From the NCBI RefSeq assembly GCF_030684315.1, contig NC_081355.1, forward strand, positions 75,478,924 to 75,542,923: 64,000 nt of DNA, in the 5' to 3' direction. The DNA comes from Stegostoma tigrinum. Taxonomy: Eukaryota. Shown piece after piece: positions 18,221 through 56,964 of the stretch; the stretch's first letter is position 1; every line of letters starts with the position of its first letter. A model generated the notes under the pieces. That model did not search any database. It was not told where the DNA came from and was given only the letters and a program-made list of their open reading frames with translations. The translations under genes were made by a program, and so were the position numbers.

Positions 18221-18527
18221 ATGAATGAGACCATATTTACATTTTACCTCCTATCTCTTAACAGTTCTTTGTCAGCAGGATCTAAATTGATATTGAAGTG
18301 TTCTACTTCACTAGGGCACAGGCACACTTCCTGATCCAATACCACAGAAATGAAAGTAGGCCAGTATGCAGCAGATTGGACTGCATTCCCTAATTTGCTG
18401 AGGTCAAGGCAGCAGTTTAACATCAAAGCCAAAATCCCAAATGTAATATTAAATGCAAATTATGGTTCTTACTCACAATAGTCCACAAAGCTTTTTGCTC
18501 AATTGCCCTGACATCCTTTTGAACTGA

Positions 18528-18703
18528 GATAATAGGAACCGCAGATGCTAGAGAATCCAAGATAAAAAGGTGTAGAGATGGATGAACACAGCAGGCCAAG
18601 CAGCATCATAGAAGACCCCTCAAGGGCTAGGCCTGAAACATCAGCCTTCTTGCTCCTATGATGCTGCTTGGCCTGCTGTGTTCATCCAGCGCTACACCTT
18701 GTT
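18528..18703 (-). mobile_element. Fold-back Penelope-terminus mini-element (family A)
   Basis: Inverted arms; flanking direct repeat ATCCTTTTGAACTGA at 18513-18527 and 18704-18718. Confidence 0.9.
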
Positions 18704-19139
18704 ATCCTTTTGAACTGATCTATTTAGCATGCATTCTTTCGGGGGGGGAAAAATAAGTTTGAAAGGATTACAAAATATCAGTGAATTAATTACAGCCAAA
18801 TGGTTTAAAAATTACTGTATTTCATCAGCACGTAGAATTCCAAAAATGATTGGAAGTTTAGAAACAAAACATTGCGCTTCCAGTGTTTGAAAGATGCGGT
18901 TGAACTATGTCAGTCATTGCTGCTGGTTCACACCTCTCCAAATCTTTCTGCCATAAAGCAATGGGTGTGGTGTAACTGCATCCTGATTGATAGTATGTCC
19001 CTGCATGTTGACAAGAGTTAATATTGACACCAGTCTCAAACACACACTGATTCCCCATAATGTTAAACGTATTTGTATGTTTTCACTTGGTTACATAATG
19101 AGATTGTACATCTCTGATGACAATAATTTGACTGCTTAC

Positions 19140-19230
19140 CTCCCATGTCTGAGAGAGTCGACAGATGGCAGCACTGTTAAGACCCATGATTATGGCGAAG
19201 GAAGAGTTAAGGTTCCTTAATGCCCTGCAA
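19140..19230 (-). CDS. RAPGEF5: RAPGEF5 exon: CRALRNLNSSFAIIMGLNSAAICRLSQTWE
   Basis: 91 nt; cttag|T ... GAG|gtaag. Confidence 0.95.
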
Positions 19231-19903
19231 CTAAGAGATGGAAGATGACACTTATTAACATGTAGTGAAATTAGAAGTCTAGCGTCATGTGCAAAACTGT
19301 TATCTACTGAAATGCTGCAAACCTCTCACAGAATACGGAAAGCTGTCTGCTGTCCAGTAATCTTGCAGTCACACATTGAAATCTAATTTAAATATGCCAA
19401 TTTGGAGAAAAGTGGTACAGATTTTATTTTCCTATCCTGACTTTTCTGTCTCAATCACTGTAAAATATCTTTGGAAATCCAGGTTCGTGTCATTTGGTCC
19501 CGTAGGGTTCTTGATTACTTTAGGTAGGGTACAAAGTACTGGCTATGCTATTATCAATTATCTTAAGAAACTTACTATTTAATTTGATCCCTTTGTCACA
19601 TCCCAAAAGTCAGGTCATACACATGAATTCTGATCTGCTGTTACGTATGACCACATAAATGTCACATCCTCGTTGGTACTACTACCATTATAGGAATGTA
19701 ACAAAGGCTTTGCACGCCTCAATAGTTGTTACTAGCTCTCAAAGTGTAATGTACACAGATTAAAATGTGCTAACTGTACCAAAAAGAAAGGAAAATGATT
19801 GAAGCAGTTTCTGTTCATAACAAATTCCTAACTCTTATTTGCCAGCCCTTGTTATATTACAGAAATGCACGTGCAAGTTAGAAGTAACAGCAATATCTTG
19901 TAA

Positions 19904-20053
19904 GGGGTAGTGGGAACTGTCGATGCTGGAGAATCTGAGATAACAAGGTGTAGAGCTGGATTTCTGGAGAAGGGTCCAGACCCAAAATGTCAACTTTTCT
20001 GCTCCTCTGACACTGCCTGGCCTGCTGTGTTCATCCAACCTTACACCTTGAGT
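19904..20053 (-). mobile_element. Fold-back Penelope-terminus mini-element (family A)
   Basis: TSD CAGC(A/G)ATATCTTGTAA at 19888-19903 and 20054-20069; degenerate hammerhead core ctggaga-agggtccagaccc-aaaatgtc. Confidence 0.88.
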
Positions 20054-21289
20054 CAGCGATATCTTGTAATGTATTTTTCATTTCTAAGTGCATATGTGAT
20101 TGAGTTAAGTGCTTATCATAAGTGTTTGGAGCTTACATGGGCATTTTTGGATTGTTGTGCAGCCACAAAGCCATGCATTGTGCAAGGAACATTGCTATCT
20201 AGCATCAATAATAAATATCATAAGTAGACACCCATCGAGAAACCAGCCAATTCCAAAATGCTGAGGATCTTCTTTCCCAGGTTAATTCAGCTCAGTTTAG
20301 ATCAGACTGGTTGCAAAATCATGCAGAGTGTAAAATAAGTTCTGCTGGCCAGCTGTTGCCAGTCATCTAACCATCATGAAGTGTTAAGGTCAACCCCCAA
20401 ACTTTAATGTTATTTCTCTTTACAGTTCCTATTCTGCTCCCTAAATTTCACTTTGGGCTTGGTAATTGGTTGGGCTGTCATTTGAGTTTGGTCCCTTATT
20501 TGCAGGGTTGAAGTGACATTTCTTTGGGTTGTGTTCTGTTGTTTCTAATTCCATACAGTTCATTTCTTTTAGAAAAAAAACTGCTCCTGATGACATTGCT
20601 GAGGATTGATGTCTGCAGTATTCAATTGTTTGGTGCTTGATTGTGTGTGTCTGGTATTTATTCTGTGTAAATTTTTTTATTCCTGGATGTGGTAAGTTGG
20701 AAAGAGAGACTGAACTGGGGAAAAATGTAAGCACAGTAACAAGATATTTTGAAGCACTGAATAAAACTCAGAGGTCATGGAATGTATCATTTGCATCATT
20801 TTGCACATAAAACTCAACAGTATCTTCATGACAGCTGACCAGTCCTTACGTCTTCAATCTATATCATTTGTCTTTATTGATCTTTGATGGCATTTCTACA
20901 TTTAATGAGCATGTTGGTGAATATATTCTATTATCCACACAAACTGAAATATACTGCTTTTTGTACTAAAACAGGACCACAATTTTACAAAACAATCAAT
21001 CTGCACAGTTTCAGTTATGAGTCTAATATGAGCTGTCTCAAATAATTTCAACCTACACTGCCCAAGGATGAGGTCAGGAAAGGATAGCTCATAAATTGTA
21101 AAAAATGTTTAAGCATCCACTTTCAGTTTTAATGGTAGCCGGGTGGTAGGGATGGGTGTGGCAACAAAACTGCTCTGCAGCCACAGACCTGCCATCTTAA
21201 ATACAGTTACTAAGGTATGAAGTAAAATTAGCCTATAATGGGTTCGGAAAATACATGAAAGGGTAAATGAGTGAATAAGCAGGTGCAGA

Positions 21290-22157
21290 TATTTCAGTAG
21301 ATATTTCATATTGCTCAACCAAAACTTATTCCAGAAATAGAGGACGCATTGACCAAAATATTCCAGACTGGATTCCAGAAAGGTTACAGCAAGTGAGAAA
21401 ATCACTAATACCGCACCTCTGTTCAAGAAGGGAGTGAGGCAGACAGCAGAATACTACGGGTCAGTTAGGTGCTTAAGTCCATTTATTAGGGAAGAAATAG
21501 CAGGACATTTTGAAAGAGAAATCATTTTTGACAAGCTTGATAGATCTCTTTCAGGTAAAACAAGCAAAATTGATAAAGGGGAGTCAGTAGATGTACTATT
21601 TGTGGATTTCCAGAAGGCACTTGGCAAATAGACACATTTTTTTAAAAATTGCACAAGATAGGAACACACAGTATATACAGTAACACAGTTGTACAGATTG
21701 AGGATTGGTAACACACAAAAGACAAAAAGTTAGGATTAACTGGTATTTTTCAAGTTGCAAAGATATAAATAGTGAAGTGCCATAAGGATCAGTCCAAGGG
21801 CACAATGATTTACTATCTACTTGTATTCCAAGTGACTTGGTGAAGGGGCAGAGTGTTATGTGACCAAATTTAATGATGATTCAAAATAGGTCGGAGGACA
21901 TGTTGGGATGAGGGCATGAGGAATCTGCGACAGGGTTAGGGGATACACATAGGTTCAGCAAGTGGGGAAAAAAAACTTGGCAGATGGATTTCAATGTAGG
22001 AATGTGTGAGGTCATGCATTTTGGTAGGAAGAATCAAAAGATAGACTCTTATTCAAACGGGGAGACAGAAACACAAAATATGCATCATAGTGGGATCTGG
22101 GTTTTCTTGTACAAGAAACACAAAGTTAGTATTCAAATACAGCAAATAATTAAGAAG
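21290..22157 (+). mobile_element. CR1 ORF2 fragment
   Basis: PLFKKG, VDVLFVDFQKA, MDFNVGMCEVMHFGRKN. Confidence 0.85.
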
Positions 22158-22184
22158 TGTGATGTAGACTATGAGATTTATATT

Positions 22185-22755
22185 CATAGAGACATACAGA
22201 CTCTGAGTCCATGCTGACCATGGTCCCAAACTAAACTAGTCCTACTTGCCTGCATTTGGCCCATATCCCTCCAAACCTTCCTATTCATGTATCTATCCAA
22301 ATGTCTTTTAAATGTTGTAACTGTACCTGCATCCACCACTTCCTCTGGCAGTTCATTCCACAAATGAACTACTCTCTATGTGAAAAAAGTTGCCCCTCAT
22401 AACCTAGTTAAAACTTTCTCCTCTCACCTTAAAAATATGTCCCCTAGCTTTGAACAGCCCCACCCTAGGGAAAAGACACTTGCTATTCATTTTATCTCTG
22501 CCCCTCATTATTTTGTAAACTTCTATAAAGGTCAGCCCTTAACCTCCGACACTCATCAAAAAAATGTCAGCCTACCCAGCCTTTCCTTATAACTTAAACC
22601 CTTCATTCCCAGCAATATCCTAGTAACTCTGTTCTGAACCCTCTCCAATTCAATACTCTCCTTCATGTAGCAGGGTGACTGTGTACAGTATTCCAGAGGA
22701 GGTCTTAGCAATGTCCTGTACAATCTCAACATAACTTCCAAATTCCTATCCCCAA
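22185..22755 (-). mobile_element. CR1 3' fragment
   Basis: EVMLRLYRTLLRPPLEYC...LERVQNR plus 3' UTR. Confidence 0.87.
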
Positions 22756-24411
22756 ACCCTTACACAAAATATTATTTACTGTAACTGTGGGCTTTTGAGT
22801 TAACCACGGGTTTTTTGTTTGCCTGCAGTTAATAGTTAGCTTATAAGGATTTCTATCGTCATTATGATTTCTTTTAAAACAATTTTTGAAGCCTTGCTTT
22901 TAAATTGGTGTGTTATGCACATTGGTAGAGTAGGTTGTTGTTCTTTTCTCCACCTATCCAAATATCATAATCTTTGGCTTTCATTCAGGAAAGAGATCGT
23001 CAATGAACAGGATGCTTTCTCCTTAACGCCTAATGTTATATTTTTTACTTGCAAGCATGAATACAATGGTGTCAAGCATAAATGCTACTGAAGGTCTTTG
23101 TGTTTCATTAACAAACATTTGTAGCTCTGATTTTCTGGTGACGAGCTACTTGCATATATGATCCTTTGACTGGAAGTAAACAATTAGTGTTGTATAACAA
23201 CAGAAGCCAAATAATTTCACCAAGTTAATCAACGCTTAAACCCCTTCACCTCCTGCACGATACCTTTCCCTTTGCCCCTTTGAGAATACAATTCTACCCT
23301 GCAGGATCTCAACAAAAACGTGTTTCTGGAAATTTTCATATTCTACAATTAGGCAATTAAAAATAAACATGCATCTGCTTTTTTTTGTTGAAACAGAATG
23401 CTCAGGGTAAATGAAAAAAAATCGTGGGAGTAAGCAATAACATACTTCCCCGTTGGCTGGTAACTCACACCAATGAAGTATAAAACAATAATCTATCCAT
23501 GTAATGAATTATCACCAGAGAGTTGTAGTGTTCCAGGTATAAATCAAATGTTCCCTAGCATCCCAGGGCTCATTTCTGTTCATAGTGTAAAACAGAATGG
23601 CTCTCTGATGACCATGAATTCCAACTGTTCTTTCACTTGAGTTAAACAGACAATTATAACTCATTCATGGTCTTCCTCCAAGGGCCTGCTAAGGCCTGTG
23701 GCTGCTAAAAGAAGCCTTATCATCAGTATAATTAACTCTTAAGGCTCCAAATATTAGGAAGAGCATTGATGAAATTTGTTGTACATTAGTTTTTTACTTT
23801 TTTTTTGATTTTTTTTTTCTTCTGGTAATGGGTGATGACAATGTCATTGCTGAGGATGGCTCGTAGGAGTGACCAACCCAACAGAAGGAGGGAGCTGAAT
23901 TAGCAAAGCAGCGAGACTGATTAACATAAGAGTGTCCAGGAGCTACCAGCTCAGTTAAATGCATGTTAGTGAGACTTCTCTGTGCTCAGGGCTCAGTAAC
24001 TCTCAAGACAGATGCCCCTACTTAGATCATCAAGGAGCTCTCTTTTTTCAAATGGAAAGCACAGAAAGATAATTATGTTACAGTTCATTACTTTTCAGCA
24101 GAATTTTAAAATCGTTCCCACATTTTGGAAAAAAGATGTCAAATCTTCACATGTATCTCCACAATTAGAAAAGTCAGCATCTTACAAATACAATGCAACC
24201 ATGTAAATATGCATTGTTAGCATAGGATATAATGAAAATTGTGAACAGCTTCTGCTTCCTAGTACCAGAGAAAATCTCTGCCAAACACAGACGTCAATGA
24301 CATATCTCTTTTAGAGCCGCAGATGTGTCCCGGAAATAATGTGACCTTGGAACTGCTTTTGTTTTACAATCCTTTTTTAACCTTTTTGTACAGAATGCCT
24401 TTTCCACTTAC

Positions 24412-24581
24412 TGAGCAGCAACCTTTACGAACTTTTTGACAAGCTGCACTCGTTTGGATAGCTGGCTACAGAGGAGGACTTCAGTGGCAACCCACAGTTG
24501 AACCTCATTGCACCGCTGCAGCAGAAAGTCAAGGTTGGCAGTTGTGTTCCTTCTGTGGAATGTGTAATAGATCAGTTCCTG
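24412..24581 (-). CDS. RAPGEF5: RAPGEF5 exon: [56 protein letters not shown](H)
   Basis: 170 nt; tgcag|CAG (tandem NAGNAG acceptor) ... CA|gtaagt; CDC25-domain WVATE motif. Confidence 0.95.
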
Positions 24582-24801
24582 CTGCAAAGGGCACAGAAGG
24601 AGAGAAAATCAGTGAATATCCCTACACATGTACCAAGGAAGAAAATAGCTGTTATCTAATGGAAGTGATCCACTGAACCAAGCAATATCTGCATATTCAA
24701 TCTCCTTTAACCCAAGTGTTTGATTTCTTTCCGAGTAATACTTTGAGTTGTAACAAGCTGTCCTAAATCACTTTTGTAAAACATAATTTGATGCTCATTT
24801 A

Positions 24802-25200
24802 GGCAGCAACCATGGCTCACTGGGTAGTGCACTCACTTCTGACACAGAAGGTTATAGATCCAAATCCTGCTGTAGACTGCTGAGCACAAAATCTGAACTG
24901 ACAACTGATTACAGTACAGGGGAAATGTTGAACTGTTGGAAGTGTGGTCTTTTGAAAGGGTTGTCAAATCAATACTTCGACTCTTTCAAGTGTTCTTTTT
25001 ACCAATGTCTTTGCCAATATTTTAATCCCTTGAAGAAAATCACTAAAACACATTTTCTGGTTATTATCTTTTTTTTGTGGATCTCACTGCAAACAAATTC
25101 ACTGCCATTTGGAGACATTGCAACATTAATTACAATCCAAATGTATTGGGATGTTGTGAAGCACTGAAAGGTATTATATGGACACCAGTTATTTGTCTTT
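24802..25200 (+). mobile_element. Old tRNA-headed SINE, probably DeuSINE/SacSINE1-like
   Basis: A-box-like tggctcactggg, degenerate B box and an L2-like tail. A related copy lies at about 12770-13100 on the minus strand. Family assignment is from memory. Confidence 0.6.
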
Positions 25201-25579
25201 GTGCTACTCTGTAGACAGTACATGGTTCAAAGTGACCGCAGTGGAGTTTTCATTGTCTTGATTTGTAGAAAACCTTAAGATCAAATCTAGAGAGGTATCT
25301 TGTGCAGTTGTTACATGAGCAACATTTTTTGGCTTTATATTAGATAATATTTCCAATACATAAATGACATTTTTTAGATTATTGAGTCTAGTATCCAAAT
25401 GGGTCACTAATGTCTGGATTACATTTGACTACAGAACTGCAGCAACTTGGTTAACTGCCATCTGAAATAATCTAGCAAGCCATTCAGGTCAAAGCCACAA
25501 ATGACAGCACTGTCCACACCCTGTATACCAACAATAACGAGGGGGTGCAGAATCCCAGTGCCTGAGTTGCTAGACCCCC

Positions 25580-25860
25580 CCCTCACCATGGGGCAAGATA
25601 TGAATAGTTGGAGGAAATGACATCAGTGACATCCCAGATACATTCATGGATCGAGGATTGGGAGATGCAACATATGCCCCCAGTTCCTCCCCAAACTGAG
25701 CCACTGGCATAAAGACTGATGGAAGCTATGAGCAATTCAGGTGCTAGGATGTAGTTATCACCCACTCCTTCTAAGCACAAGTCCCTGACCAATAGATAAC
25801 ACATTTTGGTAATGATGGGCCTGGATAGCCTTAAATTGGTGTCTGCACTGTCTTTCAATC
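25580..25860 (-). pseudogene. PIF/Harbinger transposase remnant (HARBI1-like N-terminal region)
   Basis: LRLSRPIITKMC...ISLYASGSVWGGTGGICCISQSSIHECIWDVTDVI resembles the L.FYASGSFQ...GD..GISQ....R.I..VTDAL motif. Confidence 0.75.
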
Positions 25861-28363
25861 AGTTGAAGAAAATGGCAGTGAGGCCTCTACACGTGAAGTC
25901 TCATCATTCTCCTTCACCTCTTGGTGGACTTTCACTCATTCCTACTCCGTCTGGAAGCTGCACAGCAGCCAATGGAGACTTCTATTCCTGCTGAGCTTGT
26001 TGAAGAAGTTGTAATTACTGTATTTTTCTACACTGCCTTCAGAATAGCACTAGGCCAAAAGTTGTCCAGCAAAGGTGATGTCCACATGAGATCCACGAGC
26101 AGATAATTTATGGGTAATGTTAGAAAGATAAAGCAATTTTGATTACAAAGTTCCATGATCACAAAGACTCATGTCATGCTATCAAAGTGTGGTAGAGTGG
26201 CTCCCCGAGGAGATCATTTTCATTGCTCCATAGGGAGCTCTGAGGTATGTGACTTTCTCCAACTGTGCATTGCACACCAAAGCTTTGATACAACGTCGAG
26301 AGTAGAAACTCTGCTAGTACACCCCTTCCAAACTGCTATGGAATGTGACTTTGAAATGGGAAGTTAAGATTCTGCTTTAATGACTTGTTTTTAATATAGT
26401 TGCTCAGCTGATAATGACTAGGAGGTAATTTGAGCACACAATGTGATTGATTGATGTACTCCAATGCTGTTGACTATAATTTCCAAGCTGCAATCTTAGG
26501 CACCAATTGATGTGCCAATAAAGTGCAAATTAAAGATAGATGGGAGGCATTTCTGAGTCAATGGAAGCTTGAATAGTGCAATTACCCCAGGAGGAAATCT
26601 AATTCCAGAGTTTATTTGTTCCCAAAGGAAAAAAGCAATATCTTACTTTGCCCAATCTGCATGTAGTGTCTGTCAGTTTATGTGAACATTATTGTGCAAT
26701 TGACTTTCAATTTGACATTGCAAAGTTCTAACTTTGCTTCAGTACTAGTAAGTTGCAAGCTTCACCTGTCATACATGAAGTTCCCTCATTCTTCATGTTT
26801 CTTGTTGTCAAGCTGTTGCTTTGGCCCTGTTGGCTGTCAGCCTATCCACATTTCTGTTATCTCCTTTTACATAATCATTAAGGTCCTCAGTTTAACTATA
26901 GAACCCAGACACAGGAAATTCCTGTCCTCTTTTTAGTCCAACACCTTCCCCCTGTCAATTTTGGAGTTGCAGTGAGCTGTTTGAACACTGTACCCAATAC
27001 TCCCTGTTTCCCCCCCATTCACTTTGAGGCCTCACCCTGTTATCAACAATCATCTCTTACCATTGTCACGATCCCTTCAGGGATCCAATACAATGAAGCT
27101 CATCCTTAAATTCCAGTTGCCTGCTTTCTCCAGGACTACAAGGAATGTCCCTCACAAGGACACTGACCATTAATGGTCCAACCCCAAGTCTGACTCAGCA
27201 GGATAGCTGGCATAAGCACTGTCCATGCCCTGGATGGACAGTCTACAGCACCCCACCTAACCCACCTGTAATAACCAGAATGCTTGCATGCATCCTCCAA
27301 TACAAACACTCATCCCTGGGCTCTGGGAGGAACAAGCAGCTATGTGATGTTGGCCAAACCCCTGAACTGATCTCAGGTAAGCTCCTTGTGTGATTATGAT
27401 GGCATTCCCTGACTGTCTGTGGGCCCTCTTCACTCCACCAAGGATTTCTTGCCATTTATTTGAAGCACATGTAGTACATTTTCTGTGTAAAATGCTGGCA
27501 CGTACTGGAGGTCTCACATTGACGCAGCAGAAAGTTGTATGTTCCTGATCTGACTGATAGATTGAGTGATGAATGCTTCCTACCAAACCCAGCTGGCTGT
27601 CTTTCCCTCTGCACTTAAAACATTATTAAGTCTTATTAAGCTACTTCAAATTTATACCTGAACGTTCACTCTGCTCAACCGAAGTCATTTGTTTTCTACT
27701 GAATTTGAATGACAATGTCAAAACAACAATTTGAGTTTATATAGTAACTTTAAAGTTGAAAAACTTTGAAACAAGGAAAGTGTTGTTATGAGGATCAACA
27801 AAAGGCTTGGCAGAAGAGATGGCTCGGTTTAAGTGAAGTTTTTAAGCAGAACGAAAGTGGAGAAATCCGAGGATTTTGGGTGTAGGCAATTTCAGAGCAC
27901 AAGGTGCCTCAGTAGCTGAACACAGAAAACATTGGCATCAGAGGAATGAGAATTTGGACTCAATAACTTTTGTATAACATTTCTAATCAGACATATCCAA
28001 TAGTGAACATTTTATTCAAATACAGAATGGTTATCAATTTTTATTAGTCGTGAGAAAGAATTAACTTTAACTTACTTAATGCTGTTCAGATTAATTTACA
28101 ATCATCCATAAATGAAAATTAGACAAATTGCTAATGAGACCCACTTGTCAGTGTTCTCTAAGAAGCTAGTTAAAGGGAACAAACTGCACAGTGGCTCTCT
28201 CAGGTACCCTGCTTGGGGTATATTTAATTCAGAAGTTGTCCAGAAAAAAATCAACCACTACACAAAATGTTCACTTACAACAGTGTAGCTCCTGAACACA
28301 GCAAGTAAATGTTTTGACATGTGCAAGTAAATTACTCCATAGCATGTTTAATGAAACACTTAC

Positions 28364-28486: not shown

Positions 28487-28699
28487 CTGGAATAGACACA
28501 CAAGTATCAGATTAATAACTGTATATATGATTTCTGCTGGATAAATAATGAAGAAGTTGGATGGCCCTGGAATGTTGCTAAGGGACAACTGATATCACCA
28601 TCTAGTTTTTCTGATGGCGAAATAGTCATTACTCCGCATAGATGGAGTTGTGCCTGGCAAAGCTCCGAATCCCCACCCAGGCAGGCTCAAAAGACTTCA

Positions 28700-31360: not shown

Positions 31361-31681
31361 CTGCCGGGAAAGGAACGAAACATTTAAAGATAAACTAATT
31401 CTCAGCATTTTGGGATATATGGGTAAAACCTGCAGACAGCATGAAGGTATTGATTATTTAGCCTGAAAAAGAGATAATCATTACTTTCTAATGTTGTCAT
31501 ATTATAGCTGTCTGTACTTTCCAGAGAAAACAGTAATATAATACAAGAAGTCAAATGGCAATTTCAAAACAACACCTTTCTGTAAATTCGCATTCTGCTT
31601 GATGAGTGTGGGCTAATATCATAGTGAGTTAAGTGTGCATCTTGCTCACTGGTAGGACTATTCTAAATTTACAGATCACTG

Positions 31682-31815
31682 CTGAAATGAAACAAAAACA
31701 GAGGTGTCTGGAGAAACTCAGCAGGTCTGTGGAGAGAAAAAAAGTAATCATTTCAAGTTCAATGACCCTTCTTCAGAAAGTTCCAAAGTAAATTTCCATT
31801 TTATTCTATTTTTGT
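31682..31815 (-). mobile_element. Penelope-terminus element (family B), right arm split by the full-length CR1
   Basis: gagaaactcagcaggtctg; minus-strand CTGAAGA-agggtcattgaactt-GAAA; continues at about 36018-36040. Confidence 0.7.
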
Positions 31816-34800: not shown

Positions 34801-36017
34801 CTTCGTGGACAATGGGGAACCTGTGGATGTGGTGTATCTGGATTTCCAGAGGCATTTGACAAGGTACCACACCGAAGGCTGCTACATAAGATAAAGTTAC
34901 ACGGTATTATAGGTAATGTATTGGCACGGATAGAGGATTGGTTGACCAGTAGAAAGCAAAGAGGAGGGGGAAATGGGTGTTTTTCTGGTTGGCAGTCAGT
35001 GGCTAATGGTGTGCCTCAGGGATCAATGTTGGGACCTCAATTGTTTACAATTTACATAGATGATTTGGAGTTGGGGGCTAAGCATAGTGTGTCAAAATTT
35101 GCAGATGATACTGAGGTGAGTGGTAGAGCAAAGTGTGCAGAATACACTGAAAGTCTGCAGAGTTATATAGATAATCTAAATGAGTGGGCAAAGGTCTGGC
35201 AGATGATATTGATAAGTGTGAGGTCATCCATTTTGTTAGGAATAACAGCAAAATGGACTATGTTTTAAATGGTAGAAAATTGCAGCACGCTGCTGTGCAG
35301 AGGGACTTGGGTGTCCTTGTGCATGAATCGCTGAAGCTGGGATTGCAGGTGCAGCAGGTGATTAAAAAGGCAAACGAAATTTTGTCTGCCATTGCTCAAG
35401 GGATGGAGTTTAAAAACAGGGAGGTTGTGCTGCAGTTGTATAGGGTCCTGGTGAGGCCACACCTGGAGTACTGTGTGCAGTTTTGTTTCTTTACTTGAGA
35501 AGAGATGTACTGGCACTGGAGGGGGTGTAGAGGAGATTCACTCTGTTGATGCCAGAGTTGAGAGGGTTGGATTATGAGGACAGACTGAGTAGACTGGGAT
35601 TATACTCATTGGAATTCAGAAGAATGAGGGGGTATCTTATAGAAAGATATAAGATTATGAAGGGAATAGATAAGGTGGAGGCAGGGAGGTTGTTTCCGCT
35701 AGCAGGTGAAACTAGGACTCGGAGGCATAGCCTCAAAATAAAGGGAAGCAGATGTAGGACTGAGGTCAGGAGGAGCTTCTTCACCCAGAGGGTTGTGAAT
35801 CTATGGAATTCCCTGCCCAGTGAAGTGGTTGAAGCTACCTCGCTGAATGTTTTGAAGGAAAGGCCAGATAAATTTTTGAACAGTAAAGGAATTAAGGGTT
35901 ATGGTGAGTGGGCGGGTAAGTGGAGCTGAGTCTCAAAGATCAGCCATGACCTTATTAAATGGCGGGGCTGGCTCGAGGGGCCAGATGGCCTACCCCTGCT
36001 CCTAGTTCTTATGTTCT
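31816..36017 (+). mobile_element. Full-length degraded CR1 LINE (ORF1 zinc finger plus SGNH esterase; ORF2 APE plus RT)
   Basis: ORF1 CCSCMMWE...HICSK and VVVGESIIRG; ORF2 TETWL, GDF, SDH, KSPGPD, PQGS, FADD; TTCTTATG tail; 9-bp TSD TATTTTTGT at 31807-31815 and 36018-36026; many stops and frameshifts. Confidence 0.95.
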
Positions 36018-36121
36018 TATTTTTGTTTTGGATTTCTAGATCTTTTACCGTCTAATTAAGGTTGTATTCATACAAAGGTAGATTCATTTCTTATACATTA
36101 AAAAATGCATCAGTTGCAGTC

Positions 36122-36472
36122 CTTTATTCATTCATGGGATGTGGGTGTTGCTGGCCAGGCAGCATTTATTGCCCATCCCTAATTGCCCAGAGGGCAGTTA
36201 GGATTCAACCATATTGCCGTGGTTCTGGGGTCACATATAAGCCAGGCCAGGTAAGGATGGCAGTTTGTTTCCCTAAAAGTCATTAGTGAACCAGATGGGT
36301 TTTTCCAACAATTGACAATGGATTCAGAGTCGTCATTAGATTCTTAATTCTAGATATTTACTGAATTCAAATTCCACCATCTGCCATGGTGGAATTCGAA
36401 CCTGGGTCCCCAGAACATTATGTAGGTCTCTGGATTAACAGTCCAGTGATAATACCACTAGGCCATCACCAC
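36122..36472 (-). mobile_element. tRNA-derived SINE, full length
   Basis: Minus strand has A box TGGCCTAGTGG and B box GGTTCGAATTC, with tail cacatcccatgaatgaataaa. Related copies at about 2510-2695(-), 7380-7570(+), 10500-10630(-), 39950-40130(-) and 40250-40575(+). Confidence 0.9.
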
Positions 36473-36565
36473 CCCCTGTCATCTGTGTAATATTTGTCAA
36501 GTTTGGATTATGTTTGAAGGCAGAGGGATGTCACTCAAATTAAATAAATCCCCTGATGCCCAAGG

Positions 36566-37451
36566 CTGTGCACAGTGTTCAGAACAGACAGGATCAAGAA
36601 CCAAAATAAATTAGTCCCCAGAACTCAATGAAATTAATCAGGTGAACTGCAGGTTCCAGTCATTGCCTAATGAAACTCAGTCTGTGGCAGCAACATAAGA
36701 CAGATCATTTAACCAACACAACTGACCTTTATGGCTGCTGATGTAATTGCAGTTCATGTTTTTGGATACAAAAGAGTCCAAACTTAACTGAAAGAACTGC
36801 AAATGCTGTAAATCAGAAACAAAAACCAAAATTGCTGGAAAAACTCAGCAGGTCCGGCAGCATTTGAGGAGAGAAATTAGAGGTAATGTTTTGAATCCAG
36901 TGAGGAAGTGTCACTGGATACAAAACGTTAACTCTGATTTCTCTCCACAGGTGCTGCCGGACCTGCTGAGCTTTTCCAGCGATTTCTGTTTTTGAATCTA
37001 AATTTAACATTATGTTGCTTGTTTTATGGACTTGAACTGGTCACAACAATAACCAATTCTTCTGTGATTTCTACCCTGGACGATTTTTTAGCGAGACTTA
37101 GTGAAACGAGGTTGCTATTTTGGTTCACTTGGGACAGTGAGAGGTTTTCAGGTTTGGAGCTACTTAAACGTAAATGAAGAGTTCTCAAAGAAAACCAAAA
37201 CGTTTTAATTATTTCTGGTGTTCGACACAACAGGAGTGTTCCTGCTGGTTTAATAAAAAGAATGACGAGCTGTTTTTGCCCTAGACTTGCCCCCTCTTAA
37301 GATCACCATCACGGCCCAGTCTTATCCTGACACAGACTGAGTTTCATTAGACAATGACTGGAACCTACAGTTCACCTGATTAATTTCATTGAGTTCTGGG
37401 GACTAATTTATTTTGGTTCTTGATCCTGTCTGTTCTGAACATTATGCACAG
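36566..37451. repeat. 125-bp inverted repeat pair (36566-36690 and 37327-37451)
   Basis: The arms align without gaps, with 5 mismatches by eye; spacer 636 bp. Confidence 0.93.
36789..36993 (-). mobile_element. Fold-back Penelope-terminus mini-element (family B)
   Basis: Arms gctggaaaaactcagcaggtccggcagca and tgctgccggacctgctgagcttttccagc; centre tgaggaagtgtcactggatacaaaacgtt is a degenerate hammerhead; degraded 15-bp flanking repeat. Confidence 0.85.
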
Positions 37452-37629
37452 TTTTCAATAACCCAGGAAGATTCTTCTCATTTATTTACTAAACTCAAGA
37501 TCTGACTCATTTTCCCACATCCACCACAAAAGTCTGTTGTAAATGCAAACCACAGAGATCTGCTGATCAGCTACAACCAGTGAGTTCATAAATATTAGCT
37601 CCTTCCCTCCAGATTGCACCCATTTGAAG

Positions 37630-37826
37630 TTACAAGGTGTAGAGCTGGATGAACACAGCAGGCCAAACAGCATCAGAGGAACAGGAAGGCTGATGTTTCA
37701 GGCCTAGATGCTTCTTCAGAGAATGTCAGCTTTCCTGCTCCTCTGATGCTGCCTGGCCTGCTGTGTTCATCCAGCTCTACACCTTGTTATCTCAGATTCT
37801 CCAGCATCGGCAGTTCCTACTATCTC
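37630..37826 (+). mobile_element. Fold-back Penelope-terminus mini-element (family A)
   Basis: TSD TGCACCCAT(T/C)TGAAG at 37615-37629 and 37827-37841; minus-strand CTGAAGA...GAAACATC in the left arm. Confidence 0.9.
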
Positions 37827-38053
37827 TGCACCCATCTGAAGACTGACTCGTTATCAAGGGCTGAAATTTGGAAAAAAAAATACTGAGCAAATCGAAGATC
37901 TCCACATGGTCTTCAGTTCAACAGAAAAGCTTGCAAGTATTTTTTCCAGAGTCTCAGGGAGATACAGCTGTTCAAGTTTAAATTCTATTGAAATGAATCT
38001 AATAGAGAGGTTGGGGTAGGTTCTTTATCCACAGATTCTCCCCCCGAACTAAC

Positions 38054-38126
38054 CTTCTTCAGCTTGATATGCCTTAGGTTGCAGCCACTTCTCTCTGCAA
38101 CTGAATTGATGGAAATTTGTTGTATT
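38054..38126 (-). CDS. RAPGEF5: RAPGEF5 exon: NTTNFHQFSCREKWLQPKAYQAEE(V)
   Basis: 73 nt; ttacag|AAT ... G|gttagt; matches the recalled NKALFHQFSLKENWLQ. Confidence 0.88.
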
Positions 38127-39339
38127 CTGTAAATAAAAATGGAATATATTGGCAAGAGAAATGATAAATATTGCTTACTAAATAAAATCATGCAGATTTG
38201 TATCTTTGTACTAATCTTAGACATTTGCTATGAACAGACTTTATAAATTTTTGGCAGGCATATACAATGGTCAGTTCACATTTAATGATCATCAAATTAT
38301 TCATGAATTCCTATTGAAATAGATAGATAATGAATGCACTGGGAAAGCCTTGAGTAGTACACAAGCATCATGCTCGAGAAAGTTAAAAATAATTAATGTA
38401 ATCTCTTCTGTTGATATCTTAAAAAAATGCATATAAATGGTTTTAGGTGTTGTGGTTTTCTGTGCAAGGTCAACTTTCCGCAGGAGCTTAAGAATAAGTT
38501 GAGCACAATAGGGGAAAAAAATGAATGCTATCTGGAGTCCACAAATAGTAGTGAAATAGTTGTCAAAACTCTTCATTAACTTTTGGTAAAACCCCTTCTT
38601 GACTTCTCCATTCTAATGAAACTGTCACAGTATCAAAATTGTGTTCTTTATACTTTAGGGACACAATAGTGGGAGGGTACAACTACAGAATAATAATTAC
38701 AGATTACAGGAGAAATCTACATTACGTGTGAATATAGGAAGTTATACAGAAGGGTTGAGGAAAACAAGATCTTGATAACATGAATCAGATTTGGGCATCT
38801 GGGAAGTGAAAACAGCTGCATTTTTTTTAATGTATAATTATTTATCATGCAGTTAAATCTACACATTTTGTACAGATATCTTTTACACCTAGTTTCTCTA
38901 TATTCAGAGACCTGACTTCAGAGCAGAATGGTTCCATCCTCTTTAATGCTTATAAAATCCCTTATTATTTCCTTTTATGTTATCTACTAGTATTTGTTCT
39001 TATTCTCTCAGAGCACTTGCTTGTTTTTAGCCCTCGCATTACGTTTTCCATATTCCTTATAATTTCATTGTTTGCTGCATCCTTATCATATACTTCTCCT
39101 TAGATTCCAATTCGGATTTAACTTCAGTTTGGCAATGGAAACTTATTTTTTTGGAGGACCCCTTTAAGCTTCAAAAAATATATTTATTTTGTTTTCTACC
39201 CATTTCCTATTTGAGGATTCCCCACTGGTGATCTGTATCATGCCTGTTAACTTTCCTGTTCAGGTCCTTTTAGACAGTTCACTTCTTATTGTGCTGAACT
39301 TTGTGTTTTTTTTCTATTCCATTTCCATTCTATTCAGCG

Positions 39340-39890
39340 CAGGATTTCTTCAGGGGAGCATCCAAGGTCCATTCTTCTTTAGCAGCTTCATCAACGACTT
39401 TCAGTCCATCATTAGGTCAGAATTGGAGATGTTCACTGATGATTAAACAGCATTCAATATCAGTCACGAATGACTCAGATACTGAAGCAGTCCATAGCCA
39501 AATGTAGTAAGATTTGAACAGTATCAGCCTTGAGTTGACGAGTGGCAGGTGATATGCACAGCATACATGTGTCAGGCAACGGCTACATCAAACAAGATAT
39601 CATCTAACCACTGAGCTTTGACATTCAATGGCTTTACCATTGCAGAATCCCCCATTATCAACATCCTGGATGGATGCCATTGACCAGAAACTGAACTGGT
39701 CTAGCCATATAGATATTATAGTAACAACAGCAGATCAGAGGCTAGGAATCCTGCAGCCAGTAACTCATCTCCTGACACCCCTGTTCACCATCTACAAGGT
39801 ACAAGACAGAATACTCTCCAGTTGCCTGGATGAGTGCAACTCTAAACTGAAGCAGCTGACAGCATCCAGATCAAGGCAGGCCTCTTGATT
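39340..39890 (+). mobile_element. Old LINE RT fragment (second family)
   Basis: LQGSIQGPFFFSSFINDF...MFTDD and IDQKLNWSSHI. Confidence 0.82.
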
Positions 39891-40249
39891 GGAATCGCAT
39901 CCTCATTCACTCACCTACAACTGACACACTTGAGCAAAGTGTTAATTTTCTTTATTCATTCAAGGGATGGGGACATAGTTGGCCAGGCAACATTTATTTC
40001 CCATCCCTACTTGCCCAGAGAGCAGTTAAGAGTCAACCACATTGCTGTGGGTCTGGAGTCACATGTAGACCAGCCAAGATATCAATGGTAGTTTCCTCCC
40101 CTTAAGGACATTCGTGAGCCAGATGGGTATTCCATCTACAGAGTGCACTGCAAAAATTCATGAAGCATGCCGATACAGCTCCTTCCAAACTCATAGCCAG
40201 TACAATGTAGAAGGATGAAGGCAACTAATGCATTGGAAAACCACCACAT

Positions 40250-40575
40250 CCTAGTATTGTTGCTACCCTATTAATCTAGAGGCCCATGCAATGTTCTGGG
40301 TACCGAGGTTTGATTCCCACCATGACAGGCAGTTTATTTTGAATTCTATAAAATCTAGAATAATGATATTAATGATGACCATGAAACTATTGCCATTTGT
40401 TGGAAAACCCATCTGGTCACTTATGTCCTTTAGGGAGGGAAACTGCTGTCCTTACCTGTTCTGCCCTACACATGACTCCAGACCCTCAGCAATGTGGGTG
40501 ACCCTAAACAGCCCTCTGGGGTGGATAACAAATGTTGGCCTAACCAGTGACACTCATTCTGTGAGTGAATAAAGA
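40250..40575 (+). mobile_element. tRNA-derived SINE (same family as 36122-36472)
   Basis: B-box-like ggtttgattccc; body ccatctggtcact...tttagggagggaaactgc; tail gtgagtgaataaa. Confidence 0.85.
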
Positions 40576-42454
40576 AAAGCCATTCATTTTGGCTTGGAAA
40601 CATGCCCTTCTTTGGTCTTTCACTGGGTCAAGTGCTGGAACTCCCTTCTTATGAGCACTGAGGGTGTGCCTACACCAAGTGGAGTACAGTGGTTCAAGCC
40701 GACAACTCATCACCACCTTAAGAGAACTAGGTGTGGGGAATGAATGCTTGCCTAGACAGCAAAGCCTGAATTTTTTCCTGAATTTTTTAAAAGTCTTAAT
40801 TATGCTTAACATTGACTCTTCATAATTCTTTTTACTGTTATGCTAAGAATGTTGTGCTCACTATTTCTCAGCTGTTCTTCCACAATCAACAGTCATGTGG
40901 CCATTTCATCTCCAAACACAAAAGCAAACAATTATTCTTTCTTTCCTGAAATACAGCACATTGATCTAATATAAGTCCTGGATGTATTCAGCAATGTACT
41001 CTCAGTCTAACGAGGGAAATACAAAATCATTCCTTATTATTTCCATTTTGTTTCAACACATCAGTATGAATAGTCTACAAATCTTCCCTTCTCCATTTAT
41101 TGGTGACCTGTAACGCAGACCAAGAATTGTCTCCTTTCTTATTGGAATAATGGCATCTGACATCACAAAAAGTAGGAGTTCAGCCATTGTACTGTTAGGT
41201 CTTTGGCAGTGCCATCTGATTTGACTTAGCGCTGGAACATTTTTCGAAAATACGTATAAAATTTCCTGTTGCAAGTTACCAAATGAAGATCCATAAATGA
41301 TAATATTCCATGTAAAGCCCTGGAACAATCATGAAATTCCTAAAAAGGCAGTAATGGAAAATTCATTGCCAAATCTGCAAAGGAGCAGCAAAAGACTTAC
41401 TACAGCTGAGAACATAAAACAATTAAATCTATCATATGAAGGTGGACCACAACCTGTGCACCAACAACTAAACAGCCAAAGGCATTACATTTATACTAGA
41501 CCCATTCATTATACAGGCTGGACAGCACAAAAAACACATCATTCAGCACGATTGATTTATGCCGGTATCTATGCTCCACATGGATTTCCAAATGCACCTC
41601 CTAATCCAAACCTTTCATAATCCTCCCCCTCACGTGTTTATCTAACATCTTAACTGCACACGAATTGTTCTTGTATAACATAAAATCATTGTAATATCAG
41701 TGATAAACAATAATAGCCAAAGATAAAAACAAATTATGTTCCACATCACTACCATTCACCTGATACCTTGTAATAAATTCCAAGTTATTACAATGATAAT
41801 AACGATCAGTGATTACTTCCCCAGACCACAAGGAAAAGCCTTGATTTTACTTATACTTAACTTTAATTACTTAAGTCGGTAAAATGTGCATCTTACGATT
41901 GGCGTATGATCTTTAATGTGCTCTAATGACTCATGCATATTTACATACTTTGTAGTTAACGATGTTATTAGGTTGTGCAAAAATTACTGCAGGAACGTGG
42001 ATTATCATTAACTGAAGAGTTGCTAATCATTGAGGCTGTATGCCAAAACAACCTTTGAATTAAGAAATTAGATGTGGAAAAGTTACAATGCAATGAAAAT
42101 GAATTACTAACTTGCAAACAAATAATCAACTGATCAATTAACATCGGGGAAAACCTGCAATTCATAGGAATCATGTTATATGTGAAAAGCATTAATTTGC
42201 TAATCAAGCTGATCATCCTGCATTTTAGTAGACCTGAATTCAGAAGTCTGAAATTTCTGAAGTTATTAGCTTTCAGAAACAGCAATTCAGTTGGGTTCTG
42301 CAGGACTACATTAGCATTAGCTGCCTGCACTGATTTCTCTACATTTGCACTTATATTTGTTAGCCAATCAAGGGATTAATTATCTGAAGTTTTGGCCGAC
42401 ACTGAGTTCCTGCAGGCTTTAATGCATGCACCAATATGATGCTGGATCATACAG

Positions 42455-42715
42455 TCATAATCAGAGTCAGACAACACAGGAGGCCCTTTGGCCCAGGTCT
42501 GAGCCACCCGATCTGCACTAATCTCACTTTCCAGCACATGGCCCCAAGCCTTGAATATTTTGACATTTCAAGTGCTCATCCACATTTTTTTTAAAAACAG
42601 TGAGGGTTCCTACCTCTACTACCCTCCCAGACAGTCCATTCAAGATTCCCACCATCTTTTGGGAGAAAAAAAATCCTTAAATCCCCTTTAAACCATGTGC
42701 TTTGCACCTTAAAAT
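42455..42715 (-). mobile_element. CR1 3' fragment
   Basis: Degenerate FF...VVGILNGL sequence and 3' UTR resembling 55700-55940. Confidence 0.65.
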
Positions 42716-42734
42716 CAACTGTGTTGGGAAGGAG

Positions 42735-42817
42735 AGATAACAAAGTGTGAAGCTGGATGAACACAGCAGGCCAAGCAGCATCTCAGGAGCACAAAAGCTG
42801 ACGTTTTGGGCCTAGAC
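42735..42817 (-). mobile_element. Single-arm Penelope-terminus fragment (family A)
   Basis: Reverse complement of about 61148-61230; stops at hammerhead stem II. Confidence 0.85.
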
Positions 42818-42997
42818 ACTGAGTTGTTGATCCTGGTTTATTTGAATGCCTTTGCTTCTCGAAAATGTTATTAAAGGGTAGTGTTCAAATTAAATATACA
42901 GTACCCCAAAGTTTATTTTTATATGAACCGACTGTAGCTCAACACTTTTCCTATCTTCAGTGTAATGTTGTGTAATTATTTCCGAATAGTTTAAACT

Positions 42998-43903
42998 TAG
43001 AACATAGAACATAGAACATTACAGCACAGTACAGGCCCTTCAGCCCCCAATGTTGTGCCGACCTGTCATACCGATCTCAAGCCCATCTAACCTACACTAT
43101 TCCATGTACGTCCATATGCTTGTCCAATGACGACTTAAATGTACCTAAAGTTGGCGAATCTACTACCGTTGCAGGCAAAGCGTTCCATTGCCTTACTACT
43201 CTCTGAGTAAAGAAACTACCTCTGACATCTGTCCTATATCTTTCATCCCTCAATTTAAAGCTGTGCCCCCTCGTGCTCGCCGTCACCATCCTAGGAAAAA
43301 GGCTCTCCCTATCCCACCTATCTAAACCGCTGATTATTTTATATGTTTCAATTAAGTCACCTCTCAACCTTCTTCTCTCTAATGAAAACAGCCTCAAGTC
43401 CCTCAGCCTTTCCTCGTAAGACCTTCCCTCCATACCAGGCAACATCCTCGTAAATCTCCTCTGCACCCTTTCCAAAGCTTCCACATCCTTCTTATAATGC
43501 GGTCACCAGAACTGTACACAATACTCCCAAGTGCGGCCGCACCAGGGTTTTGTACCGCTGTAGCATAACCTCTTGGTTCCGGAACTCGATCCCTCTATTA
43601 ATAAAAGCTAAAACACCGTATGCCTTCTTAACAGCCCTGTCAACCTGGGTGGCAACTTTCAAGGATCTGTGTACATGGACACCGAGATCTCTCTGCTCAT
43701 CTACACTGCTAAGAATCTTACCATTAGCCCTGTACTTTGCCTTCCGGTTACTCCTACCAAAGTGCATCACCTCACACTTGTCTGCATTAAACTCCATTTG
43801 CCACCTCTCAGCCCAGCTCTGCAGCTTGTCTATGTCTCTCTGCAACCTACAGCATCCTTCGTCACTATCCACAACTCCACCGACCTTAGTGTCGTCTGCA
43901 AAT
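42998..43903 (-). mobile_element. 5'-truncated CR1 LINE, relatively young
   Basis: (TTCTATG)n tail; two long ORF2 fragments (43492-43872 and 43092-43484) separated by one frameshift. Confidence 0.95.
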
Positions 43904-44821
43904 TATTCAACTTATACATAAGGTAAAAGGACCAAATACTAAATAGAGTGCAATCCATTTTTAACAATTGTGTAGCCTAATTAATTATGGACTTTGATAA
44001 AATTGATCAAATTTCATGATGACGGAGACAAAATGTCTGAATACAACCCTACTTATTCACTTAAGCATGAAACTAATACATTCACATGCTGTTAACATAT
44101 GTTAGTGAACAATAAGTTTTGATTATTGTTTGAAGGTGTATTCACACTATAACAAAAACATAGGGGCAAATTACTGGATTAACTCCAGTAAATATTAACA
44201 TGCATACAAAGCATCGCAAGGCTAAACTGCAATGGAAAAACACCTTAATCTCACTTCACTAAAGCAGCATCAACATCAATCTTAAAACAATGACTTGTTT
44301 AATGCCCTACTGGGTAGAATTTTTATTTCCTACATGCAAGCCATGCTTCAAAATCTAAGATTAAGGTAAGTTAAACTGAGACCTGTGTTACGCATGACAG
44401 TTTTAGTCTGAGGTTAGGGAACATGGTGGCACAATTTTTGGTAGATTTTGATAGATTACAAGTGATTTGTATGTCAGCAATTGCCCAGATATCATAATCA
44501 GTAGCATCTGCTGATCTTGATGCCGTGGACTGTTCCTTTTCAAATTGTTTTTTAAAACTAGCACCAAGGCAAAAGGATTTTCAGGCATGCAGCAGCTGTG
44601 ATGTCAATAAATTGAGTAAACAGCCATTCACATGGAAGCATCTGGTTAAAAGTGCTTGATATGTCAATTTTAATATATGTTTTTAGTTTGTAAAGCAAGT
44701 GATCACCCTATAATTTACATAATGTCCCCCTGACATTCAACGGCGTTCTCAACTCTGAATTCCCACACAAAAATCCTGGGAAGTTACCATTCACCACAAA
44801 CCAAACTGGACCAGCTATATA

Positions 44822-45016
44822 TTAAAGTGTGGAGCTGGATGAACACAGCAGGCCAAGCAGCATCTCAGGAGCACAAAAGCTGACATTTCGGGCCTAGGGT
44901 CTAGGCCCGAAACGTCAGCTTTTGTGCTCCTGAGATGCTGCTTGGCCTGCTGTGTTCATCCAGCTCCACACTTTATTATCTTGGATTTTCCAGCATCTGC
45001 AGTTCCCATTATCACT
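44822..45016 (+). mobile_element. Fold-back Penelope-terminus mini-element (family A)
   Basis: 75-bp inverted arms at 44823-44897 and 44901-44975; TSD GGACCAGCTATATA at 44808-44821 and 45017-45030; nearly identical to 61146-61265. Confidence 0.93.
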
Positions 45017-45231
45017 GGACCAGCTATATAAATGCCATGGCCAAAGGAACAGGTCAGAGACTTGGAATTCTGAAGCAAGCAACTCACATTCTGTCTCGCC
45101 AAAGCCTGTCTGCCATCCATAACGTAACAGTCAGGCTTCCAGTAGCATTCTCTTATTGCCTGGATGAATGCTGCTCCAACAACAAAAAGGTTGACAACAT
45201 CCACAACAAAGCAACCTGCTTAGAGACAGTA

Positions 45232-56953: not shown

Positions 56954-56964
56954 CATAACATAAC

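What the first reader, a model, noticed from the sequence alone, without database searches (positions are those of the whole stretch)
18513..45030. Family of fold-back, hammerhead-derived Penelope mini-elements with 14-16 bp TSDs
Seen: at least five 150-205 bp insertions (18528, 19904, 36789, 37630, 44822) consist only of a Penelope 3' terminus joined head-to-head to an inverted copy of itself. Four have clear flanking direct repeats of 14-16 bp; the fifth has a degraded one. The template terminus for four of them is present in the same window (61136-61265). Established: Penelope-like elements carry minimal hammerheads in their terminal repeats and often have inverted 5' segments. Inference: these are either a non-autonomous hairpin (retrozyme- or SINE-like) class mobilised by the Neptune RT/GIY-YIG protein, or the stereotyped product of abortive two-ended integration. 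The narrow TSD range suggests a fixed staggered cut. Arm lengths differ between copies, which favours independent formation at each insertion.
Basis: partly seen in the sequence, partly recalled or inferred. Interest (0 to 1): 0.75.

Follow-up and report, generated by a model that had tools for sequence, protein, structure and literature searches.

The report
Penelope fold-back stubs in shark DNA
Five short mirror-image insertions are gene-less stubs of a Penelope-type jumping gene, a miniature of a layout already described, and their fixed outer ends and unique centres suggest that each was likely built on the spot by copying the element's RNA onto both cut ends of the chromosome.

Summary
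Five 150-208 bp insertions each join two Penelope (Neptune-type) terminal pieces head to head between 12-17 bp direct repeats. A contig of another species holds the target of 44822 uninterrupted, with one copy of the repeat.

The SINE/retrozyme reading is not supported: three or four subfamilies, five different junctions, a complete hammerhead core in 1 of 10 arms, no Pol III boxes, no dominant joint among those shown.

One arm always ends at about 61227-61231 and the other 33-38 nt further (the known PLE 'tail'). These match the two reverse-transcription start sites reported in vitro (PMC11167929). In 4 of 5 hairpins neither arm contains the other, which argues against simple snap-back. Best model (0.7): both nicked strands prime cDNA at the two sites and the cDNAs join by 1-3 nt microhomology. 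Short arms stop at a 5' wall near 61135, perhaps the RNA start.

The layout (inverted pLTR, tail, TSD) is published for long copies. This scan has noted the same stubs before: 196 findings in at least 23 genomes, including this genome.

The parts
18513..18718 (.). Hairpin 1: TSD 18513-18527; tail arm 18528-18614 (-); 7-nt spacer resembling an inverted piece of 61141-61149; tail-less arm 18622-18703 (+); TSD 18704-18718
19888..20069 (.). Hairpin 2: TSD 19888-19903; short tail arm 19904-19961 (-); tail-less arm 19962-20053 (+); TSD 20054-20069
36777..37008 (.). Hairpin 3 (second family, like 9071): degraded TSD 36777-36788; tail arm 36789-36903 (-); tail-less arm 36901-36996 (+), 3-nt overlap; TSD 36997-37008
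37615..37841 (.). Hairpin 4: TSD 37615-37629; tail-less arm 37630-37722 (-), the only hairpin arm with a complete hammerhead core; tail arm 37723-37826 (+); TSD 37827-37841
44805..45030 (.). Hairpin 5 (arms 97% alike, youngest): TSD 44805-44821; tail-less arm 44822-44897 (-); tail arm 44896-45013 (+), 2-nt overlap; TSD 45014-45030. Uninterrupted target seen in another species
9059..9220 (-). Single-arm stub with tail, 12-bp TSD (9059-9070/9209-9220, 1 mismatch) and a 5-nt inverted piece at its 5' end
45207..45384 (-). Single-arm stub of an older subfamily with tail, 21 nt of unexplained filler and a perfect 15-bp TSD (45207-45221/45370-45384)
42731..42820 (-). Single-arm stub ending at the tail-less site; no clear TSD
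31680..31778 (-). Old single-arm stub of the second family; no clear TSD
57740..61265 (+). Long, broken Neptune-type PLE copy without a 5' pLTR: RT region (stop codons and frameshifts), CX4CX2C linker, GIY-YIG with inner cysteines, pyrimidine-rich 3' region, hammerhead, tail
61138..61165 (+). Minimal type I hammerhead core (CUGAUGA, stem II, GAAA, no real stem III); short arms stop at or downstream of its 5' edge
   Evidence: motif as described in PMC4209133
61230..61265 (+). The 'tail' between end site A (about 61227-61231) and end site B (about 61262-61266)

Best explanation
These are single, gene-less insertions of Neptune-type Penelope-like elements, each likely built at its own site when both cut strands of the target primed a copy of the element's RNA. 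Shown: head-to-head arms of one subfamily, outer ends at two fixed sites 33-38 nt apart, unique centres, 12-17 bp target duplication. Inferred steps: (1) the GIY-YIG nuclease nicks both strands 12-17 bp apart; (2) each 3'-OH primes cDNA, one at site A (no tail) and one at site B (tail), often with 2-3 nt of primer-template pairing; (3) because A and B lie at the pLTR-ORF junction, only about 95-130 nt downstream of a 5' wall near 61135, the cDNAs are short; the wall is most likely the RNA's 5' end (about even odds; a polymerase stop at the hammerhead hairpin or a splice junction are alternatives); (4) if both cDNAs come from one RNA, the site-A copy would run to the wall first and the site-B copy would stall earlier; (5) the two cDNA ends are joined by 1-3 nt microhomology and filled in. 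The stubs are dead ends and do not copy themselves.
For: Geometry: in 5 of 5 one arm ends at site A and the other at site B. Site A is a genome-wide end: 2837 loose ends at 44978-44982 in the six rows shown for run X4 and 499 in run X13. Two RT start sites bracketing the tail, nicking and extension of both strands, and a predicted dimer are reported for the anole element PAc (PMC11167929). In 4 of 5 hairpins the tail-less arm reaches further 5' than the tail arm, so neither arm contains the other. Both arms share subfamily letters in 3 of 4 family-A hairpins. All 5 junctions differ, with 1-3 nt overlaps. Public contigs give 369 joints, 15 shown; the deepest is 0.006% of arm depth. Repeat letters next to the arm match the template continuation for >=2 nt at 5 of 10 outer ends (naive P = 2.5e-4). 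Uninterrupted target with one 17-mer: X19 record 11. 13 of 14 short arms stop at or downstream of 61135 and 6 of 14 within 61132-61139; 961 loose 5' ends in X4 share about 10 more element letters, then scatter. Penelope transcripts start inside the pLTR in Drosophila (PMC2377424).
Against: Only five hairpins were read in full; 4 of 5 arm asymmetry is not significant alone, and 18528 can be read either way because of its spacer. Later deletions at a palindrome centre could mimic the asymmetry. Four of five tail-less ends have 1-3 mismatching letters next to the repeat, against one or two of five tail ends, so the two ends may not form by the same chemistry. The in vitro paper found no homology between cut DNA and RT start. 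5 of 10 ends show 0-1 nt overlap. The 5-nt inverted piece at 9071 and the spacer at 18528 look like snap-back. No listed contig spans the 44822 hairpin; the joint table was cut, shows only joints starting at 44851-44873, and X4 was overloaded. The uninterrupted target lies in a repeat, so it may be a paralog. In run X20 the loose 5' ends read on into the upstream pyrimidine tract instead of scattering. In D. virilis the 5' end of helix I maps to an intron end, not the RNA start (PMC4209133).
Confidence: 0.7

Rival explanations
1. Snap-back: one cDNA primed at the tail end folds back near the hammerhead, copies itself, and the second arm is trimmed at site A by the element's nuclease or by repair; later deletions shorten the centre.
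For: Self-priming was proposed for Adineta inverted pLTRs (PMC3846280) and nuclease resolution for the tail (PMC8557442). 61138-61167 folds as a hairpin that a cDNA end could prime from. Hairpin 44822 has the longer tail arm; mini inverted pieces at 9071 and 18528; untidy tail-less ends.
Against: In 4 of 5 the tail-less arm holds 5' letters that the tail arm lacks, and three tail-less arms start at 61135-61139, leaving no room for a loop. A single-arm stub ends at site A without a partner (42735). Site A is an RT start in vitro for PAc.
Confidence: 0.17
2. A non-autonomous hairpin family (retrozyme- or SINE-like) whose fold-back RNA is copied as a unit by the Neptune protein.
For: Narrow size (150-208 bp), own TSDs, very high summed depth; single joints reach 10-87 times single-copy depth. 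Non-autonomous PLE derivatives exist (PMC8557442; bioRxiv 10.64898/2026.07.22.740005).
Against: Five different junctions in five copies from three or four subfamilies; deepest shown joint 0.006% of arm depth; complete hammerhead core in 1 of 10 arms and paired with its antisense arm; no tandem units; no Pol III A box and one 1-mismatch B box in 5 inserts; no one-sided A-to-G pattern between arms.
Confidence: 0.07
3. Independent neighbouring insertions, deletion of long inverted-pLTR copies down to their ends, or assembly chimeras.
For: Termini are dense (15 in 64 kb). Long copies with inverted pLTRs are common in PLEs, and an internal deletion would leave one TSD. No listed contig spans the 44822 hairpin.
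Against: 0.025 chance pairs expected, 5 seen; arms of one site share subfamily letters; one TSD frames both arms; arms differ by 3-16% where overlap is long and flanks are not mirrored, unlike a chimera; arm-to-arm joints occur in contigs of two species. Random deletions would not stop at one 5' wall.
Confidence: 0.06

Closest known systems
Insertion unit of EN+ Penelope-like elements: pLTR, adjacent inverted 5'-truncated copy, one-sided 30-40 bp tail, TSD (Adineta Pen2a_Av, PMC3846280; PMC8557442 Fig. 2 legend; D. virilis Penelope, PMC2377424)
   Same: Head-to-head inverted termini, one-sided tail (33-38 nt here), one TSD round the whole unit, minimal hammerhead in the terminus.
   Different: No ORF or direct pLTR between the arms; whole unit 150-208 bp; TSD 12-17 bp against 8-10 bp in the Adineta cases read; arms stop at a common 5' wall; half of the insertions in the window have this form.
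PAc (anole Poseidon) in vitro reaction, PMC11167929
   Same: Two internal RT start sites bracketing the tail, just downstream of a hammerhead at the pLTR-ORF junction; both strands cut and extended; uncleaved RNA used as template (arms here cross the predicted cut at 61165).
   Different: Poseidon clade, not Neptune-type; the paper (parts read) describes no joined hairpin product and no primer-template homology, whereas 5 of 10 ends here show 2-3 nt.
Twin priming of L1 (recalled, not read here)
   Same: Both target strands prime cDNA and the two cDNAs join by microhomology, giving an inversion inside a TSD.
   Different: In L1 the two pieces are successive, non-overlapping parts of one RNA and one end is poly(A); here both arms cover the same sequence and both outer ends are fixed internal start sites.
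Non-LTR retrozymes (PMC7229834; bioRxiv 10.64898/2026.07.22.740005)
   Same: Short, non-coding, pLTR-related, hammerhead-bearing, longer TSDs.
   Different: Retrozymes are head-to-tail tandems with a complete hammerhead in each unit and circular RNAs; these are head-to-head pairs that mostly lack a complete core.

Membership tests
EN+ Penelope-like element (source element) | RT followed by C-terminal GIY-YIG nuclease | tested here: met
   59400-60134 has 289 homologs at E<=1e-20 among 1154 candidates, many with RVT_1 (RVT_1 on 3 of 3 rescanned, GIY-YIG on 2 of 3). The window's own fragments gave no RVT_1 hit; GIY-YIG E 3.3e-4, just under the curated cut-off, 51% identical to the nuclease of P0037.
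EN+ Penelope-like element (source element) | [quoted passage not shown] | tested here: met
   Cysteine pair between the two half-motifs in the translation; definition from PMC8557442. The histidines were not aligned.
Neptune clade | CX2-5CxxC linker before the nuclease | tested here: met
   CX4CX2C at the end of the frame. Shared with Nematis and Naiad.
Neptune clade | RT phylogeny groups with Neptune | not tested
   No named reference set was at hand; no tree built. Hence 'Neptune-type'.
EN+ PLE insertion unit | Inverted 5'-truncated copy joined head to head | tested here: met
   5 of 5
EN+ PLE insertion unit | 30-40 bp tail on one end only | tested here: met
   33-38 nt in 5 of 5
EN+ PLE insertion unit | True target-site duplication | tested here: met
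   Repeats of 12-17 bp; uninterrupted target with one copy for 1 of 5 sites, the only site laid; ortholog or paralog not settled
EN+ PLE insertion unit | Minimal type I hammerhead in the pLTR | tested here: met
   Core pattern at 61138-61165 and 37719 (-). Rfam gathering scan found nothing; cleavage not testable.
Non-LTR retrozyme | Head-to-tail tandem units | tested here: not met
   All five are head-to-head pairs
Non-LTR retrozyme | Complete hammerhead in each unit | tested here: not met
   1 of 10 arms
Non-LTR retrozyme | Expressed as linear and circular RNA | not testable with these tools
   Needs RNA data for this organism
SINE | Pol III internal promoter (A and B boxes) | tested here: not met
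   Recalled box patterns: no A box, one 1-mismatch B box in 5 inserts
SINE / non-autonomous family | Copies descend from a master with a shared internal structure | tested here: not met
   5 different junctions; no dominant joint among 15 shown of 369; table cut, so a minor master is not excluded
MITE | Symmetric terminal inverted repeats and short fixed TSD | tested here: not met
   Ends are asymmetric by a 33-38 nt tail; TSD 12-17 bp; arms are retroelement termini

The most novel reading that the evidence does not exclude
The stubs are the commonest outcome of Penelope integration in sharks: a dimeric enzyme bound near the 5' end of one RNA copies it onto both nicked strands from two start sites, the first copy running off the transcription start and the second stalling behind it. 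Hundreds of thousands of such hairpins would then map the RNA start, both RT start sites, the nick spacing and primer pairing, and explain why full copies need tandem read-through transcripts.
Probability: 0.35. Interest if true: 0.7.

Novelty: new variant of a known kind. Interest (0 to 1): 0.38.

Why it matters
How Penelope-like elements integrate, and why they make inverted copies and tails, is still open (PMC8557442, PMC11167929). The gene-less hairpins strip the product to its ends, so a simple genome-wide table could decide between two-ended priming and snap-back and connect the in vitro start sites to insertions in a vertebrate. For annotation, these stubs should be filed as PLE ends and not as MITEs, SINEs or structured non-coding RNAs. 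The layout itself is known, and the scan has already reported it many times.

Tried and rejected
No whole genome is held for this window, so no genome-wide BLAST was possible.

Motif scans for further copies found 0 stretches in prokaryote genomes, viral contigs and metagenomes. Rfam gathering scan of the window: 0 matches. PDB sequence search with the RT fragment: 0 matches. Pfam hit 1 of 9 window frames. Run search: no RNA holder listed.

The end and junction profile on the template 61030-61300 was not obtained, so the exact 5' wall and the palindromic fraction genome-wide remain open. X13 record 2 also stops at 44804, as an empty site would, but its second piece was not shown, so it is not counted. 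Depth sums are not copy numbers; they are used only as a ratio. Two of the 15 shown joints (44852-44937, 44858-44946) have tail-like letters between and may not be fold-backs; they were kept in the table.

Checked and not found: junctions at the predicted hammerhead cut (61166) in 0 of 14 window arms, nearest 61161, and nearest shown joint 61168; a constant extra G at 5' ends (read by eye); a conserved splice acceptor at site A (AG follows in one subfamily only); a nick-site motif in seven targets; one-sided A-to-G editing between arms; a TSD for the long copy, 31680 and 42735.

Nine paper searches listed no paper on gene-less Penelope hairpins in sharks. Most subscription journals, Repbase and Dfam are not covered, and no supplements were read (Fig. 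S2 of PMC11167929 could bear on this).
Full report
Setting. The window is shark DNA, probably of a carpet shark: the RT fragment 59400-60134 is 91%, 85% and 68-73% identical to proteins labelled Stegostoma, Rhincodon and Chiloscyllium. No whole genome is held. A long, broken Penelope-like element (PLE) lies at about 57740-61265. Its homologs carry RVT_1 and GIY-YIG, its own nuclease scores just under the Pfam cut-off, and it has the CX4CX2C linker that marks Neptune, Nematis and Naiad. No tree was built, so I say 'Neptune-type'. Its last 130 bases hold a minimal hammerhead core (61138-61165) and serve as the coordinate system below.

Observation. All five fold-backs are real. A profile built from 15 window pieces found 15 strong hits and one weak one (E 0.49), and none in the reversed window: 10 arms in five hairpins, four single-arm stubs, and the long copy. 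Direct repeats are 15, 16, 12, 15 and 17 bp, far above the random background; two single-arm stubs have 12 and 15 bp. Chance adjacency would give 0.025 pairs. In run X19 (another species), record 11 joins 44731-44804 straight to 45014-45086 without a gap, so the target holds the 17-mer once. The flank is itself a repeat, so this may be a paralog; either way the repeat is a duplication of target. Only this site was laid. No listed contig spans the hairpin, but the arms differ from each other (2 of 77, 4 of 54, 7 of 67, 13 of 86, 6 of 21), flanks are not mirrored, and arm-to-arm joints occur in contigs of two species, so an assembly chimera is unlikely.

Anatomy. In 5 of 5, one arm ends at site A (61227-61229) and the other at site B (61262-61265), 33-38 nt further. 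Site A is a common end in public contigs: 1570, 535, 434 and 298 loose ends at 44981, 44980, 44982 and 44978 in X4, and 404 and 95 in X13 (24 of 911 rows shown). Loose ends in X20 read from the tail into letters resembling the start of the long copy, so the terminus is also the pLTR-ORF junction. The 5' ends are 61145, 61136, 61139, 61135 and 61152 for tail-less arms and 61176, 61207, 61149, 61161 and 61145 for tail arms (order 18528, 19904, 36789, 37630, 44822). So the tail-less arm reaches further in 4 of 5. Of 14 short arms, 13 stop at or downstream of 61135; the fourteenth (9071) stops at 61132-61136 depending on four letters. X4 shows 961 loose 5' ends whose consensus keeps about 10 more element letters and then scatters; X13 shows the same with 78; X20 (31 ends) reads on upstream. 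Junction overlaps are 1-3 nt. At 5 of 10 outer ends the repeat letters next to the arm match the template continuation for 2-3 nt (naive P 2.5e-4); four of five tail-less ends have 1-3 mismatching letters just inside the repeat.

Origin of the arms. The arms of one insertion share subfamily letters (3 of 4 family-A hairpins; the fourth overlaps by only 21 nt), and the five insertions come from three or four subfamilies. All five junctions differ. One search counted 369 joints on the 44822 hairpin and showed 15; the deepest is 87 times single-copy depth and 0.006% of arm depth. That is what independent formation in a very large family would give. The table is cut and X4 was overloaded, so a minor master hairpin is not excluded.

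Mechanism. Staggered nicks leave a 3'-OH at the inner end of each repeat copy. If each primes cDNA, the top strand reads antisense from one start site and the bottom strand from the other: exactly a head-to-head pair with both start sites outermost. For the anole element PAc, the protein cuts and extends both strands, starts at two internal sites that bracket the tail, uses uncleaved RNA and is predicted to be a dimer (PMC11167929; parts 1-2 of 4 read). Snap-back of one cDNA, proposed for Adineta (PMC3846280; passages and Discussion), needs one arm to contain the other; 4 of 5 do not, unless later deletions trimmed the centre. The 5' wall is most simply the RNA start, since Penelope transcripts begin within the pLTR (PMC2377424; abstract and passages). 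But 61138-61167 folds as a hairpin that could stop the enzyme, and in D. virilis this position is an intron end (PMC4209133; passages). The one-RNA refinement (second cDNA stalls behind the first) fits the asymmetry; I took that wording from an earlier scan note and could test it only on five copies. Nicking, priming, joining and the nature of the wall are inferred; the geometry is shown.

Comparison. Inverted 5'-truncated copy, one-sided 30-40 bp tail and TSD are published PLE features (PMC8557442, passages; PMC3846280; PMC8969392, passages). Very short PLE insertions are known too (median 128 bp in Chlamydomonas; PMC9977147, passages). Retrozymes are tandem units with complete hammerheads (PMC7229834, passages; bioRxiv 10.64898/2026.07.22.740005, parts 1-2 of 5 and passages); these hairpins fail both tests, and the SINE and MITE tests. 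PMC5753468 and PMC9004415 (passages) had nothing on this form. L1 twin priming is recalled. Nine searches listed no paper on gene-less shark hairpins; Repbase, Dfam, supplements and most subscription journals were not seen.

Earlier scan notes. The scan holds 196 findings on this theme in at least 23 genomes, several from this genome, most reaching the same two-ended reading. These are unchecked notes, not support. My reading and the run-off idea were written before I saw them. Two of their leads failed here: junctions at the hammerhead cut, and A-to-G editing.

Verdict. Real feature; the smallest form of a known PLE insertion unit; not a self-copying family. Its value is as a countable record of an unsolved integration mechanism. 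Novelty: new variant of a known kind. Interest 0.38.

Noticed in passing
36566-36690 and 37327-37451: A 125-nt inverted repeat, 96% alike, 636 nt apart, encloses hairpin 36789; no flanking direct repeat found. It is more alike than the hairpin's arms (84%). A local inverted duplication or a TIR element; unexplained.
   Followed up: partly
57740-61265: The long copy begins only about 10 nt downstream of where the tail reads into the ORF, so it is almost exactly one unit long, without 5' pLTR or TSD, between two CR1-like pieces in opposite orientation.
   Followed up: partly
16120-16605 (-): A 3' PLE fragment (template about 60511-61124) that stops about 10 nt upstream of the 5' wall of the stubs and lacks hammerhead and tail: the complement of the short copies.
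   Followed up: partly
9201-9209: A 5-nt inverted copy of stem II letters sits between the single-arm stub and its TSD, like a tiny snap-back; the spacer at 18615-18621 is similar.
   Followed up: partly
44716-45700: Hairpin 44822 and stub 45239 both lie about 180 bp apart inside one old, LINE-like repeat (depth; family not identified by a call).
   Followed up: partly
45349-45369: 21 nt of filler between the 5' end of stub 45239 and its perfect 15-bp TSD; source not found.
   Followed up: no
56624-57444: Two CR1-like pieces form an imperfect inverted repeat (326 nt, 73%, 169 nt apart); CR1-like 3' ends with 5-nt repeat tails at about 42994 and 57700.
   Followed up: no
40014-40520: Two related short repeats in inverted orientation (104 nt, 76%), with another copy at 7384-7471; SINE-like by recall.
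   Followed up: no
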